NCBI GenBank assembly: GCA_964648015.1
Contig: CAZYKO010000004.1
Span: 101,208 to 165,207, forward strand
Direction: 5' to 3'
Source: an uncultured Coxiellaceae bacterium
GTDB lineage: Bacteria > Pseudomonadota > Gammaproteobacteria > DSM-16500
Length of the DNA: 64,000 bases
The notes under the pieces were generated by a model. It searched no databases. It saw only the letters and a list, made by a program, of their open reading frames with translations, and was not told where the DNA came from. Below are positions 57,632 through 62,755 of this stretch, in pieces. The position numbers were made by a program, and so were the translations under genes. Every line of letters begins with the position of its first letter. Positions within the stretch are counted from its first letter, which is position 1.

Positions 57632-57721
57632 TGATGGCGTTTATATTTTATCGGTTTGACTTCAATTAAATAAATGCGTCTATTGTCACTATGCAGGACT
57701 TTAAATCGAAAATGCCGGATT
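57632..57721 (-). repeat. Orphan copy of the last ~30 codons of corC (direct repeat of 61905-61994)
   Basis: 82 of 90 nt are identical. The translation IRHFRFKVLHSDNRRIYLIEVKPIKYKRHQS* compares with the corC C-terminus IQHFRFKVLHSDNRRIYLIEVKPIKYKRHQV*. Confidence 0.85.
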
Positions 57722-57751
57722 ATTTTTTGCTGATCTGAGTCATTTGCAAAT

Positions 57752-58711
57752 TTAGTCATAGTCATCTTTGGTTTCATCGAGAAGATCACTCATTACCTCA
57801 CTATCGATATTCCCGCCTGATAAAATGCATACAATTTTTTGATATTTCCCTAGTTGTGCTAACTGAATAGCTGCTGCAAGACTGCAAGCAGCAGCACCCT
57901 CACAAACTAACTTAACTGAATAAAGATGTCGAAGTGCTTGCCTAATGTCATTCAAGGAAATAACCAAACTATCATGAATTAACGGCGCCAGCTGATGAAA
58001 CACTTCAGGCAACACCTCAGGTGTGCCAATCGCATCAACAAATGAAGGAATACGCTGAATTGATACCGGTTTGTTTGCTTGTAGGGATGCTTTGAGTGGC
58101 GACGCTGTGATAGGTTCGCACGTATAAATGGCGATGTGAGGATTCAGTTGATGAATGGCATGGCTAATACCAAGGCTTAATCCACCGACGCCAAAAGGGA
58201 TCACAACGGCATCTGTCTCAGGCATATCTTCTATCATTTCATGAGCGATGCTTGCATACCCGTTGCGTAAAGCGATGTTGAGTGCAGGATGTATAAAAAA
58301 TCTATCCTGAGGTAGCTTTATATCACCGCGTACAATTTTCCATATGTCTTCATAGGGTCGTTGAATGATTTCTGCGTTAAGCTTTCGAATGGCATGGATT
58401 TTAGTTTGTGGTGCCGATTCAGGCACATAAATCCTACATGGTATATTTAGTTTACGTGCTGAAAAAGCAACTGCTTGTGCCATATTGCCAGCGCTTGCAG
58501 CAGAAAGACCCGATTGTAAAAACTGTGGATTACTATCCTTAAGCATGCCAACGATGCCGCGAATTTTGTAGGATCCGAAAATTTGTAAATTCTCTGGTTT
58601 GAGATAAATAGGCGAGAGACTATCCAACGCTGTTATATGAAATGGTATTAACTGCGTGCGGATGATGAGTCTTTCCAGATTTAAAATTTCTTCACGTAGG
58701 TTACTTTGCAC
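57752..58711 (-). CDS. PLP-dependent serine/threonine dehydratase-family (PALP) enzyme
   Basis: It has the Schiff-base lysine context GSYKIRG, SAGNMAQAVA, and the glycine loop FGVGGLSLG. Confidence 0.8.
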   Translation of the reverse strand: MQSNLREEILNLERLIIRTQLIPFHITALDSLSPIYLKPENLQIFGSYKIRGIVGMLKDSNPQFLQSGLSAASAGNMAQAVAFSARKLNIPCRIYVPESAPQTKIHAIRKLNAEIIQRPYEDIWKIVRGDIKLPQDRFFIHPALNIALRNGYASIAHEMIEDMPETDAVVIPFGVGGLSLGISHAIHQLNPHIAIYTCEPITASPLKASLQANKPVSIQRIPSFVDAIGTPEVLPEVFHQLAPLIHDSLVISLNDIRQALRHLYSVKLVCEGAAACSLAAAIQLAQLGKYQKIVCILSGGNIDSEVMSDLLDETKDDYD

Positions 58712-58786
58712 TGATTGTTAGATCCTAGCTTGACAAGCAAATGTTTTAGTTTGAGTATTATGTAAACCACATCTTCCAACGTATCA

Positions 58787-60908: not shown

Positions 60909-60966
60909 GAGATTAATTTAATATACTGTTGAAATAAAGTGACGAAAAGTTGAATATTTGTTCCAA

Positions 60967-61845
60967 ATGGATACAAAAAAATTAAGACAATTTTGCACAA
61001 TTGTAGAGTTAGGTAGCCTGACCAAGGCCGCTAAATTGCTGCATATCACGCATTCCGGCCTCTCAAAAGCCATGAAACTTTTACAGGATGAGCTGGGGTT
61101 GGTTTTGTTTCGTCCTGCCGGCAGAGGGCTCGCGCTAACTGAAGATGGCATATTGATTTATGGACGTGCAAAAGAATTTCTCGAGCAAGAGGAGCGCTTA
61201 TTCAAGTTAGAAAAAAACCAGCTACCATCGACGCTCAGCATCGGCGCTACGGAGATTTTTCTATTATCTATGTCTGAGCGACTTAGGCAGCAACCATTTT
61301 CGCATCACACGCTAACGCTTCTCGATCTTGACCCGGGGAACATGGAGCAATTAATTGCCAATAGACAAATTGATTTTGGGATTACCTATGTTCCCTATCC
61401 GATGCGAACGTTAGAAATGACTGAGATAGGCACATATCGTTTAGGTTGTTATCATTTAAAAGGCGCATTTCAAGGGAAAAAGATTTCAGAGATACCCTTC
61501 GTCGTACCGGCAAAAGGTCTATCTAGTAACACCTTGGGCATAAGAGAAAGAGATGGATGGCTAGAAAGTATTTATCCGCGTCAGAGGAAATATAGTGTCA
61601 ATCTTTTATCGACAGCAATTGATTTAACTTTGCAGGGTTTGTGTGCAGTCTATATGCCAGATTTTGTTGCAAAAAGCATAAATGCTTCACGCAAATCGAA
61701 AGAGATACTCATCGAGCATCCTTTGCCAACACACCAAAAAAATACCCAAAGTGCTTTTCTATTTAGGCATAAAGATCAACTTGAGGATACGACATTCAAG
61801 CAATTATGCAGAATAGTTAAAGAAATGATCTCAAACAAAGCATAG
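60967..61845 (+). CDS. LysR-family transcriptional regulator, divergent from the cupin operon
   Basis: The N-terminal wHTH reads MDTKKLRQFCTIVELGSLTKAAKLLHITHSGLSKAMKLLQDELG. I chose the start at ATG 60967. Confidence 0.88.
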   Translation: MDTKKLRQFCTIVELGSLTKAAKLLHITHSGLSKAMKLLQDELGLVLFRPAGRGLALTEDGILIYGRAKEFLEQEERLFKLEKNQLPSTLSIGATEIFLLSMSERLRQQPFSHHTLTLLDLDPGNMEQLIANRQIDFGITYVPYPMRTLEMTEIGTYRLGCYHLKGAFQGKKISEIPFVVPAKGLSSNTLGIRERDGWLESIYPRQRKYSVNLLSTAIDLTLQGLCAVYMPDFVAKSINASRKSKEILIEHPLPTHQKNTQSAFLFRHKDQLEDTTFKQLCRIVKEMISNKA

Positions 61846-61897
61846 ATGAGTGTTCATGATCTTTTATGGCGACACAGTTTTGAACTATCTTTGTGAC

Positions 61898-62755
61898 TCA
61901 AACTTGATGGCGTTTATATTTTATTGGTTTGACTTCAATTAAATAAATACGTCTGTTATCGCTATGCAGCACTTTAAATCGAAAATGCTGAATTTTAACC
62001 GTTTCGCCACGATTGGGAAGATGGCCAAATCCTTTTAGGACGATGCCACCAATCGTGTCGAATTCTTCATCACTAAAATCAGCCTGAAAATAGTCATTAA
62101 AGTCTTCGATGAGTGTGTTGGCTTTGATAATATACGTGCCATCATCTAATTTTTTGATGTGGCCATTTTCTTCATCGATGTCATATTCATCCTCAATTTC
62201 ACCGACGATTTGTTCTAACACATCTTCAATTGTTACTAAGCCTTCGACATTGCCATATTCATCTAGCACGATGGCGATATGATTACGGTTCATTCTGAAT
62301 TCACGTAATAAAATATCTAAGCGTTTACTTTGCGGCGTAAACACCGCTGGGCGCATGATGTCGTTGAGACTGAACTGACTCGTTTTGTCATTATTAAAGC
62401 AGTATTGCAACAAATCTTTGGCGAGGAGAATGCCTAAGATATTCTTTCCTTTAGGATCAACCACGGGGAATCGAGAATGACCTGATTCGATGACGGCGGG
62501 GAGAATGGTGCTCAATTTTGCATTTTTGTGAACAACGACCATTTGTGCTTTAGGGACCATGACTTCGCGTACTTGCATCTCAGATACGTGCAGGATACGT
62601 TCAATCATCCCCAACATATCAGACGTGAGCACATCACGATCTTCAGCATCACGCAATACTTGCATTAACTCGCCAGCATTTCGTGGTTCACGCCCGAGTA
62701 ATGTGCTTAATTTACCGAGCCAAGAGCGTTTAGGTTGTTCAGGAGGTTCACTCAT
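61898..62755 (-). CDS. corC: CorC/YbeX-family magnesium/cobalt efflux-associated protein (CBS pair + CorC_HlyC domain)
   Basis: It has tandem CBS domains and a transporter-associated C-terminal domain. I chose the start at MSEPPEQ (62755), which overlaps the ybeY stop in ATGAGTGA. Confidence 0.9.
   Translation of the reverse strand: MSEPPEQPKRSWLGKLSTLLGREPRNAGELMQVLRDAEDRDVLTSDMLGMIERILHVSEMQVREVMVPKAQMVVVHKNAKLSTILPAVIESGHSRFPVVDPKGKNILGILLAKDLLQYCFNNDKTSQFSLNDIMRPAVFTPQSKRLDILLREFRMNRNHIAIVLDEYGNVEGLVTIEDVLEQIVGEIEDEYDIDEENGHIKKLDDGTYIIKANTLIEDFNDYFQADFSDEEFDTIGGIVLKGFGHLPNRGETVKIQHFRFKVLHSDNRRIYLIEVKPIKYKRHQV

What the first reader, a model, noticed from the sequence alone, without database searches (positions are those of the whole stretch)
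57632..61994. 90-nt duplication of the corC 3' end, differing almost only at synonymous sites, brackets a 4.2-kb gene module
**What the sequence shows.**
- Nucleotides 57632-57721 and 61905-61994 are direct repeats, 82/90 identical.
- The right copy is the real end of corC (..IQHFRFKVLHSDNRRIYLIEVKPIKYKRHQV*).
- The left copy is an orphan that still translates to IRHFRFKVLHSDNRRIYLIEVKPIKYKRHQS* with its own in-frame stop.
- 7 of the 8 nucleotide differences are silent.

**Inference.**
- Silent-only divergence means the two copies evolved under purifying selection in two different corC genes before being brought together.
- That is the footprint left when an element carrying a surrogate 3' end of its target gene integrates into that gene, as islands do at tRNA genes.
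- The DNA in between (LysR regulator plus a 3-gene operon) is therefore an insertion at the 3' end of corC.
- No integrase or recombinase remains inside it.
- corC is not a classical integration hot spot that I know of.
Basis: partly seen in the sequence, partly recalled or inferred. Interest (0 to 1): 0.7.

Follow-up and report, generated by a model that had tools for sequence, protein, structure and literature searches.

The report
Gene cassette inserted into corC's tail
A 4.3-kb block of four metabolic genes was inserted into the last ~96 bases of the magnesium-transport gene corC together with a spare copy of that gene's end, a known style of island insertion at a target gene not reported before, with no recombinase gene left.

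Summary
Bases 57632-57721 and 61905-61994 are an 82/90 direct repeat; none is expected by chance. The right copy is the true end of corC. The left copy is an orphan tail with its own stop.

Over the 30 shared codons, 8 of 9 differences are synonymous (P <= 2e-4). Both tails therefore evolved inside working corC genes.

The nearest relative available (Logan contig L083; corC 94% aa, 83% nt) has an empty site. There corC runs straight into the homologue of the 601-aa gene. None of 96 other corC loci (80 GTDB, 8 JGI, 8 module contigs) carries a second tail.

The insert holds LysR, a cupin, a VOC/D-threonine-aldolase-like fusion and a threonine-dehydratase-like PLP enzyme. The same cassette sits at about six other chromosomal positions in related amoeba-associated Legionellales. 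In two of those it lies within about 3 kb of related tyrosine recombinases.

No recombinase, transposase or terminal inverted repeat lies in the insert.

Best reading: a remnant or trans-mobilised integrative islet, analogous to e14 in icd and lacking an integrase like a CIME. Integrase-free recombination is not excluded.

This is a new member of a known kind, of modest interest.

The parts
61898..62755 (-). corC (CNNM/CorC family, 285 aa), intact; last gene of the conserved phoH-ybeY-corC cluster
   Evidence: NCBIfam CorC 298 bits; Pfam NMB0537_N, CBS, CorC_HlyC. Exact protein called on Logan contigs. phoH-ybeY-corC synteny in about 80 relatives.
61905..61994 (-). Right repeat copy: the 3' coding end now completing corC (candidate attL-type junction). 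The coding tail runs on to the TGA stop at 61898-61900.
   Evidence: 82/90 identity to the left copy; codon table.
61846..61897 (.). 52-nt spacer between the corC stop and the LysR stop. It has no homology to other copies of the cassette or to L083.
   Evidence: Cassette homology to L085/L089/L091 stops at about 61849, the LysR stop; three-way alignment.
60958..61845 (+). LysR-family regulator (ORF 295 aa; called as 292 aa), divergent from the operon
   Evidence: Pfam HTH_1 and LysR_substrate; 74% aa to the LysR next to the same operon in L085.
60471..60908 (-). Cupin-domain protein (ORF 145 aa; called as 137 aa), first gene of the operon
   Evidence: Pfam Cupin_2; conserved upstream of the fusion gene in L084, L085, L088-L091.
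58787..60487 (-). 566-aa fusion: N-terminal VOC/glyoxalase domain plus a fold-type III PLP enzyme resembling D-threonine / D-3-hydroxyaspartate aldolase
   Evidence: Pfam Glyoxalase, Ala_racemase_N, D-ser_dehydrat; BhcC-like 178 bits, below cutoff; PDB 7yqa and 6qkb at E about 1e-32; homologues.
57752..58711 (-). 319-aa fold-type II PLP enzyme (threonine dehydratase / serine racemase-like), last gene of the operon
   Evidence: Pfam PALP 193 bits; PDB TdcB, serine racemase.
57722..57751 (.). 30-nt spacer between the PALP stop and the orphan tail; the sharp 5' limit of corC similarity lies here (a possible AAAAT microhomology)
   Evidence: Alignment and codon table.
57625..57721 (-). Orphan corC tail: repeat copy 57632-57721 plus the Q and S codons and a TAA stop. 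It has no start codon and is out of frame with PALP (candidate attR-type junction).
   Evidence: weak CorC_HlyC hit; colinear with the L083 corC end, spacer and g598.
55798..57603 (+). 601-aa gene of unknown family, convergent with corC; the native downstream neighbour of corC
   Evidence: 50.6% aa over 591 residues to the gene directly downstream of corC in L083; no Pfam or NCBIfam hit.

Best explanation
**What it is.** The host is an uncultured Aquicella/Coxiellaceae-like gammaproteobacterium. A 4,273-bp cassette was inserted into the last ~96 nt of its corC gene. The cassette holds a LysR regulator and a cupin / VOC-aldolase fusion / dehydratase operon.

**How it got there.** The incoming DNA carried its own corC-tail sequence, taken from the corC of a related bacterium. 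Recombination between that tail and the resident corC left two tails. One completes corC, so the gene stays intact. The other is stranded as a silent orphan next to the original downstream gene.

**Most likely vehicle.** A small circular integrative element recombined by a tyrosine recombinase that is not encoded in the present insert. The recombinase was either lost or acted in trans. What remains is an att-flanked, integrase-less islet, like a CIME.

**Shown**
- The repeat and the selection signature.
- The empty site in a relative.
- The occurrence of the cassette at other loci.
- The absence of a recombinase in the insert.

**Inferred**
- The circular intermediate.
- The site-specific nature of the crossover, probably at the gene-proximal edge near the 17-nt identical block CATTTTCGATTTAAAGT.
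- The loss or trans action of the recombinase.
For: - **Repeat.** It is real and non-random.
- **Selection signature.** 8 of 9 differences in the 30 shared codons are synonymous, P <= 2e-4. The orphan branch alone has 5 of 6 synonymous, P <= 0.007. The two tails therefore come from two functional corC alleles.
- **Empty site.** L083 has corC, a 31-nt spacer, then g598. The orphan, spacer and g601 are colinear with it.
- **Absence elsewhere.** None of the 80 GTDB corC loci has the cassette within the available downstream sequence (up to 10 kb). The 8 JGI corC loci also lack it.
- **Compact unit.** Cassette homology to other copies stops exactly at the LysR stop and near the PALP stop.
- **Other positions.** The cassette sits at different chromosomal positions in L084, L085-87, L088, L089, L090 and L091.
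- **Recombinases nearby.** Related Xer-like tyrosine recombinases lie 0.1-3 kb from the cassette in L088 and L085-87, and an IS30 transposase abuts it in L085.
- **Local precedent.** 4.4 kb away, the 3' 45-50 nt of tRNA-Arg(CCT) are repeated at 53191-53240. The interval holds gene fragments and no integrase. This lineage therefore keeps att-flanked islets whose recombinases are gone.
- **Published precedents.** e14 in icd leaves a 163-bp displaced pseudo-icd' (PMC6379469). CIMEs retain attL/attR but have lost their integration genes (PMC5704250).
- **Not an artefact.** Both junctions are reproduced in independent Logan assemblies.
Against: - No integrase gene or pseudogene lies in the insert, and none was found among the ORFs tested in the window. 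That ORF set was not exhaustive.
- The insert is so compact (52-nt and 30-nt spacers) that clean loss of an integrase would have to be remarkably tidy.
- No other genome shows an element, an integrase or a second tail at corC.
- No copy of the cassette elsewhere carries a corC-like tail.
- No att-type repeats were found around the cassette in L085 or L088. The link between the recombinases and the cassette is therefore only proximity.
- The resident tail resembles L083 slightly more than the orphan does (15 vs 19 differences in 90 nt). The classical model, in which the orphan is native, does not predict this. The asymmetry is not significant (P 0.06-0.10).
Confidence: 0.55

Rival explanations
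1. **Integrase-free acquisition.** DNA from a related bacterium already had the cassette immediately downstream of its own corC. It was taken up and integrated by the host's general recombination. Two routes are possible. One is a RecA single crossover of a circularised fragment through the ~96-nt corC homology (Campbell-type). The other is homology-facilitated illegitimate recombination, with a homologous anchor in corC and the far end joined by microhomology 96 nt before the recipient's stop codon.
For: - No recombinase lies in or near the insert.
- The insert is nothing but the cassette, with 30-52 nt spacers.
- AAAAT is shared at the PALP-side junction.
- In L084 the same operon also lies between corC and tRNA-Arg, in the same orientation as corC. 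This suggests the interval is exchanged among relatives.
- The cassette's GC content (38-44%) matches the host core, as expected for a closely related donor.
Against: - No genome with corC directly followed by LysR and the cassette was found among about 96 corC loci or 7 cassette contexts. In L084 the operon is 6.7 kb from corC and lacks LysR.
- Homology-facilitated illegitimate recombination normally deletes recipient DNA at the illegitimate end; it does not normally duplicate it (my knowledge).
- 96 nt at about 91% identity is a poor RecA substrate (my knowledge).
- AAAAT in 35-40% GC DNA is weak evidence.
Confidence: 0.28
2. **Old arrangement, secondary loss.** The cassette plus duplicated tail was present in the common ancestor of the window organism and L083. 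L083 later lost it by recombination between the two tails, so the L083 'empty site' is secondary.
For: - Direct repeats of 90 nt can mediate precise deletion that restores an intact corC.
- Only one close relative is available.
- The operon is near corC in L084.
Against: - The two tails differ less from each other (8/90) than either differs from L083 (15 and 19/90).
- Almost all of the divergence between the tails is synonymous. The orphan has therefore spent little time as a pseudogene, and the insertion is younger than the window-L083 split.
- More distant relatives also lack the cassette at corC.
- Even if true, this changes only the date of the insertion, not its nature.
Confidence: 0.08
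3. **In-situ duplication.** The repeat is a long target-site duplication, or a tandem duplication of the resident corC tail, created during insertion. The copies were identical at first and diverged in place.
For: The two copies are each other's closest relatives.
Against: - A free-drifting orphan should collect about 75-80% non-synonymous changes. Observed are 8 of 9 synonymous overall and 5 of 6 on the orphan branch (P <= 2e-4 and <= 0.007).
- No transposase and no terminal inverted repeats lie at the insert ends.
- Known transposition target duplications are a few bp long (my knowledge).
Confidence: 0.03
4. **Assembly artefact.** A metagenome-assembled contig wrongly joined two strains at the conserved corC tail.
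For: - The source is a metagenome-derived genome.
- Repeats of about 90 nt are typical chimera points.
Against: - The Logan contig from SRR10912418 spans corC, the cassette, the orphan and g601 at 100% identity. A second run, SRR10912416, reproduces the corC-LysR junction.
- A chimera would not place an orphan tail in exactly the position that the corC end occupies in L083.
Confidence: 0.02

Closest known systems
Prophage e14 (and phage 21) integrated in the 3' end of icd in Escherichia coli
   Same: - Integration is inside the 3' end of a housekeeping protein-coding gene.
- The incoming DNA supplies a replacement 3' end, so the gene stays functional.
- The displaced native end remains at the far side as a pseudo-fragment (163 bp icd'), forming homologous attL/attR.
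- The replacement differs mostly conservatively (PMC6379469).
   Different: - e14 is a 15-kb prophage remnant that encodes its own integrase and excisionase (my knowledge). Here the insert is 4.3 kb of metabolic genes with no recombinase.
- The target is corC, not icd.
- Excision has not been shown.
CIMEs (cis-mobilizable elements), e.g. those at the 3' end of fda in Streptococcus thermophilus beside ICESt1/ICESt3
   Same: - Cargo DNA is flanked by attL/attR-type repeats that include the end of a protein-coding target gene.
- Integration and transfer genes are absent (definition in PMC5704250).
   Different: - CIMEs are recognised because ICEs or IMEs with the same att specificity exist and can accrete with them. 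No integrase-bearing element targeting corC was found in any of about 96 loci.
- The repeat here is 90-96 nt at 91% identity, not a short identical core.
tRNA-gene-targeting genomic islands
   Same: - The repeat runs from the crossover point to the end of the gene.
- The island restores the gene.
- The window holds a likely decayed example at tRNA-Arg(CCT) (50545-50621 / 53191-53240).
   Different: - The target is a protein-coding gene, so the surrogate end shows synonymous rather than compensatory divergence.
- No integrase is present.
dusA-specific integrase islands and other islands in protein-coding genes
   Same: Site-specific insertion into a conserved housekeeping gene with restoration of the reading frame (PMC4482086; title and abstract seen).
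   Different: - Those elements insert at the 5' end.
- They are defined by a dedicated integrase family adjacent to the att site. That feature is absent here.

Membership tests
Site-specifically integrated island/prophage with surrogate gene 3' end (e14/icd type) | Direct repeats at both ends that contain the 3' end of the target gene | tested here: met
   82/90 repeat at 57632-57721 and 61905-61994, extending to the stop codons.
Site-specifically integrated island/prophage with surrogate gene 3' end (e14/icd type) | The target gene remains full-length and in frame after insertion | tested here: met
   corC is 285 aa, the same length as P0001 and aligned to its last residue; all domains are present.
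Site-specifically integrated island/prophage with surrogate gene 3' end (e14/icd type) | Unoccupied site in related genomes | tested here: met
   L083 has corC directly followed by the g601 homologue. The 80 GTDB and 8 JGI loci lack the cassette at corC.
Site-specifically integrated island/prophage with surrogate gene 3' end (e14/icd type) | An integrase (tyrosine or serine recombinase) encoded within the element, usually next to one att site | tested here: not met
   All four genes and the small ORFs of the insert were scanned and none is a recombinase. tblastn with the L088 integrase finds nothing in the window.
Site-specifically integrated island/prophage with surrogate gene 3' end (e14/icd type) | Excision to a circular form with attP and restoration of attB | not testable with these tools
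   Only one contig per junction was found in public assemblies. No empty-site allele of the same strain was found.
CIME (cis-mobilizable element) | Retains attL and attR but lacks integration and transfer genes | tested here: met
   The repeats are present and no recombination or conjugation genes are. The repeats are only presumed to be att sites.
CIME (cis-mobilizable element) | Related autonomous elements (ICE/IME) use the same att site and can mobilise it by accretion | tested here: not met
   No integrase or second tail lies next to corC in about 96 corC loci, and there are no corC relatives in viral contigs. Sampling of close relatives is very thin: one genome above 77% aa.
Transposon / IS-mediated insertion | A transposase, terminal inverted repeats and a short identical target duplication | tested here: not met
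   There is no transposase and no inverted repeat at the insert ends. The repeat is 90 nt and 9% diverged with a synonymous bias.
Homology-facilitated illegitimate recombination product | A donor arrangement with the foreign DNA contiguous to the homologous anchor (corC directly followed by the cassette) | tested here: inconclusive
   Not seen in 7 cassette contexts. L084 has the operon 6.7 kb downstream of corC without LysR. The donor lineage is unsampled; the nearest fusion protein is 84% identical.
Beta-hydroxyaspartate cycle genes (BhcB/BhcC) as identity of the cargo | Scores above the NCBIfam equivalog cutoffs for BhcC and BhcB | tested here: not met
   BhcC 178 bits against a cutoff of 690; BhcB 121 bits against 550. 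These are only distant relatives. The cargo works like an aldolase/dehydratase pair for a beta-hydroxy- or D-amino acid, and its substrate is unknown.

The most novel reading that the evidence does not exclude
The corC tail could be the attachment site of an as yet unrecognised class of minimal, integrase-less metabolic cassettes circulating among amoeba-associated Legionellales. These would be mobilised in trans, for example by the Xer-like 409-416-aa tyrosine recombinases seen beside the same cassette in L085 and L088. They would carry a captured 3' end of a housekeeping gene as their only 'integration module'.
Probability: 0.1. Interest if true: 0.55.

Novelty: new member of a known kind. 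Interest (0 to 1): 0.33.

Why it matters
- **A clean example.** It documents how an intracellular or amoeba-associated bacterium gains a small regulated metabolic operon without damaging the housekeeping gene it lands in.
- **A new target.** It adds corC to the protein-coding genes that can serve as insertion points.
- **A reusable method.** The synonymous-only signature between the two tails is cheap, sequence-only evidence that a duplicated gene end is xenologous. It could be used to screen metagenome-assembled genomes for integrase-less islets that island finders miss.
- **What does not change.** The finding does not alter current understanding of how islands integrate.

Tried and rejected
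- **Longer corC paralogue remnant.** Rejected. There is no nucleotide or amino-acid similarity upstream of 57721, apart from a possible K-I pair with a one-codon indel.
- **Third copy or tandem array.** None in the window.
- **Second tails elsewhere.**
  - Each GTDB locus's own corC tail was searched against that locus. The script timed out after about L063, but no nucleotide hit longer than 15 nt appeared.
  - L084 was checked separately and had none.
  - A degenerate DNA pattern for the lineage-specific tail found nothing in JGI metagenomes.
  - A broader FRFKVLHSDNRRIYL pattern found 8 loci, each with one match inside a normal corC.
- **corC tail beside other copies of the cassette.** None.
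- **Prophages at corC.** No corC relative in IMG/VR contigs.
- **Literature.** No paper on a corC/ybeX integration site. The 'corC' hits were author names such as Corcoran.
- **att repeats around the recombinase-linked cassettes in L085 and L088.** Nothing convincing.
- **Strain-level empty site or alternative context for the exact corC, g601 and fusion proteins.** Only the same contigs were returned.
- **Which tail is native.** Polarisation with L083 is not decisive. Sliding-window divergence along corC shows no step.
- **Six-frame Pfam scan.** It was replaced by ORF-wise scans.
- **Promoter/terminator scan and Rfam.** Nothing informative.
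Full report
**1. The observation**

Bases 57632-57721 and 61905-61994 are direct repeats, 82/90 identical. 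A 44-nt piece with up to 3 mismatches matches only these two places, and none is expected in shuffled sequence.

The right copy is the coding end of a full-length corC (61898-62755, minus strand, 285 aa). It has CorC, CBS and CorC_HlyC signatures. It is the last gene of a phoH-ybeY-corC cluster conserved in about 80 related genomes.

The left copy reads ..IIRHFRFKVLHSDNRRIYLIEVKPIKYKRHQS, followed by its own TAA stop. It has no start codon. It is out of frame with the upstream gene, and similarity to corC ends abruptly at 57721/57722. It is therefore an isolated tail and not a piece of a longer paralogue.

Two independent Logan assemblies reproduce the region at 100% identity. One of them spans both junctions.

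**2. The selection signature**

Over the 30 codons shared by the two tails there are 9 differences. Eight are synonymous and one is Q/R. The last codon (V/S) and the stops (TGA/TAA) also differ.

For this sequence, only 19-27% of random substitutions would be synonymous. That gives P = 1e-5 to 2e-4 for 8 of 9.

Using the closest relative (L083) as outgroup, 6 changes fall on the orphan branch. Five of these are synonymous (P 0.001-0.007). The orphan therefore acquired most of its differences while it was part of a working corC.

An in-situ duplication followed by decay is rejected.

Which tail is native cannot be settled:
- The resident tail is slightly closer to L083 (15 vs 19 differences in 90 nt).
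- The relative-rate test gives only P 0.06-0.10.
- Divergence along corC shows no step.

**3. What lies between the repeats**

There are four intact genes:
- a LysR regulator (60958-61845, plus strand), divergent from the operon;
- a cupin (60471-60908);
- a 566-aa fusion of a VOC/glyoxalase domain with a fold-type III PLP enzyme (58787-60487), closest to the D-threonine and D-3-hydroxyaspartate aldolases among solved structures;
- a fold-type II PLP enzyme of the threonine-dehydratase / serine-racemase type (57752-58711).

The BhcC and BhcB models are hit far below their cutoffs. This is an aldolase/dehydratase pair for some beta-hydroxy- or D-amino acid, not the beta-hydroxyaspartate cycle itself.

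Only 52 nt separate the LysR stop from the corC stop, and only 30 nt separate the PALP stop from the orphan. No recombinase, transposase or terminal inverted repeat is present. No recombinase was found among 20 integrase-sized ORFs elsewhere in the window.

**4. Comparative evidence**

The organism is an uncultured Aquicella/Coxiellaceae-like gammaproteobacterium. Its corC is 73% identical to that of Aquicella lusitana, and GTDB relatives reach at most 75%.

In a 5.8-billion-protein collection only one closer corC exists: P0001, at 94% aa and 83% nt.
- corC ends, and 31 nt later the convergent 598-aa homologue of the 601-aa gene ends.
- The L083 corC tail, spacer and 598-aa gene align as one colinear block with the window's orphan, spacer and 601-aa gene (alignment A1).

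None of the 80 GTDB loci has the cassette within the available downstream sequence (up to 10 kb). The 8 JGI corC loci also lack it. No locus has a second corC tail.

The insertion looks younger than the window-L083 split, for two reasons:
- The two tails differ less from each other than either differs from L083.
- Their divergence is almost all synonymous.

**5. The cassette elsewhere**

The fusion protein has relatives at 77-84% identity in many Legionellales-like contigs. More distant relatives occur in Aquicella siphonis, Paracaedibacter, Paracaedimonas, Legionella, Thiotrichales and amoebozoan transcriptomes.

Seven contexts were read:

| Locus | Context |
|---|---|
| L085-87 | LysR-cupin-fusion-OMT-PALP, flanked by an IS30 transposase; a tyrosine recombinase lies 3 kb upstream |
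| L088 | A related tyrosine recombinase directly upstream of the operon |
| L091 | After CrcB-DUF190 |
| L090 | Between PARG and an ankyrin protein |
| L089 | Short contig |
| L084 | Operon without LysR, 6.7 kb downstream of corC, in the interval between corC and tRNA-Arg |

Nucleotide homology between the window's cassette and all of these stops at the LysR stop and near the PALP stop. None of them carries a corC-like tail.

The cassette is therefore a compact unit that has been relocated repeatedly. Twice it is close to tyrosine recombinases, but no att sites could be defined there.

**6. Mechanism**

All scenarios require incoming DNA that carried a foreign corC tail next to the cassette.

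*Preferred reading (about 0.55).*
- This is the classical one: a small circular element recombined site-specifically with the 3' end of corC. One tail then completes the gene and the other is stranded. The same happens with e14 in icd, where a 163-bp pseudo-icd' remains (PMC6379469).
- The present insert lacks a recombinase, as a CIME does (PMC5704250). The recombinase was either lost or acted in trans.
- Local support: 4.4 kb to the left, the 3' 45-50 nt of tRNA-Arg(CCT) are repeated at 53191-53240 (92%). The interval holds only gene fragments and no integrase. This lineage therefore does retain att-flanked islets without recombinases.

*Main rival (about 0.28).*
- This is integrase-free recombination, either a Campbell-type RecA crossover or homology-facilitated illegitimate recombination. 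The DNA would come from a relative in which the cassette lay immediately downstream of corC.
- In favour: the extreme compactness of the insert, the absence of any recombinase, a possible AAAAT microhomology, and the operon's presence in the same interval in L084.
- Against: no such donor arrangement was found.

*Minor alternatives.* An old insertion secondarily lost from L083, an in-situ duplication and an assembly artefact are all unlikely. The reasons are given under the rival explanations.

**7. Comparison with what is known, and verdict**

The structure works like an island integrated into the 3' end of a gene with a surrogate end. Three defining features of that class are met: repeats containing the gene end, an intact target gene, and an empty site in a relative.

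It fails the feature 'encodes its own integrase'. Excision cannot be tested here. It is therefore filed as analogous to, not a proven member of, the e14/icd type. As a CIME it lacks a known partner element.

corC as a target was not found in the literature searched, in viral contigs or in about 96 other corC loci.

The kind of event is well known, the case is single, and the mechanism is unresolved.
- Novelty: new member of a known kind.
- Interest: about 0.33.

Noticed in passing
window 50545-50621 and 53191-53240: The 3' 45-50 nt of tRNA-Arg(CCT), from the anticodon loop to the 3' end, are repeated 2.6 kb downstream at 92% identity. The interval holds a truncated methyltransferase, a GNAT fragment, a YCII gene and the C-terminal third of a nitronate monooxygenase, and no integrase. 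It looks like a decayed tRNA-targeting islet.
   Followed up: partly
window 50622-61897 compared with L083 5464-8306 and L084 952-14313: The interval between corC and tRNA-Arg is a plasticity zone. It is 2.8 kb in L083 (g598, Ada-like methyltransferase, 80-aa ORF), about 13.4 kb in L084 and 11.3 kb here, with almost no shared content apart from the cassette operon.
   Followed up: partly
window 55798-57603: The 601-aa protein has no Pfam or NCBIfam family. It is only 50.6% identical to its positional orthologue in L083, while the neighbouring phoH, corC and band-7 proteins are 93-96% identical. It is a fast-evolving, possibly effector-like gene.
   Followed up: no
window 53300-55000: This block has very low GC (about 30%) and holds a DUF4760 protein and unassigned ORFs. 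The 284-aa ORF (53356-54210) has a 61% homologue about 0.5 kb downstream of corC in L014.
   Followed up: no
window 55259-55720: A GC-richer patch (about 44%) lies just upstream of the 601-aa gene. It is bounded by a 26-nt direct repeat (55287-55312 / 55694-55719, 92%) and contains a 19-nt near-perfect hairpin (55286-55304 / 55314-55332). It has no Rfam match and may be a small repeat element.
   Followed up: no
window 58787-60487 and homologues P0140-P0213: The VOC + D-threonine-aldolase-like fusion family is shared by unrelated amoeba-associated bacteria (Aquicella, Paracaedibacter, Paracaedimonas, Legionella, Thiotrichales). It also appears in amoebozoan transcriptome assemblies at 46-55% identity. 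This suggests inter-domain transfer or symbiont contamination.
   Followed up: no
L085 9703-10740, L090 9707-10744, L089 3218-3568, L088 9747-10779: Many copies of the cassette carry an O-methyltransferase (Dimerisation + Methyltransf_2) between the fusion gene and the PALP gene. The window, L084 and L091 lack it, and in L088 it is split.
   Followed up: no
L088 5207-6436 and L085 2406-3656: Two Xer-like tyrosine recombinases (409 and 416 aa, 30% identical to each other) lie 0.1-3 kb from the cassette in two otherwise different contexts. In L085 an IS30-family transposase abuts the PALP gene. No att repeats were found.
   Followed up: partly
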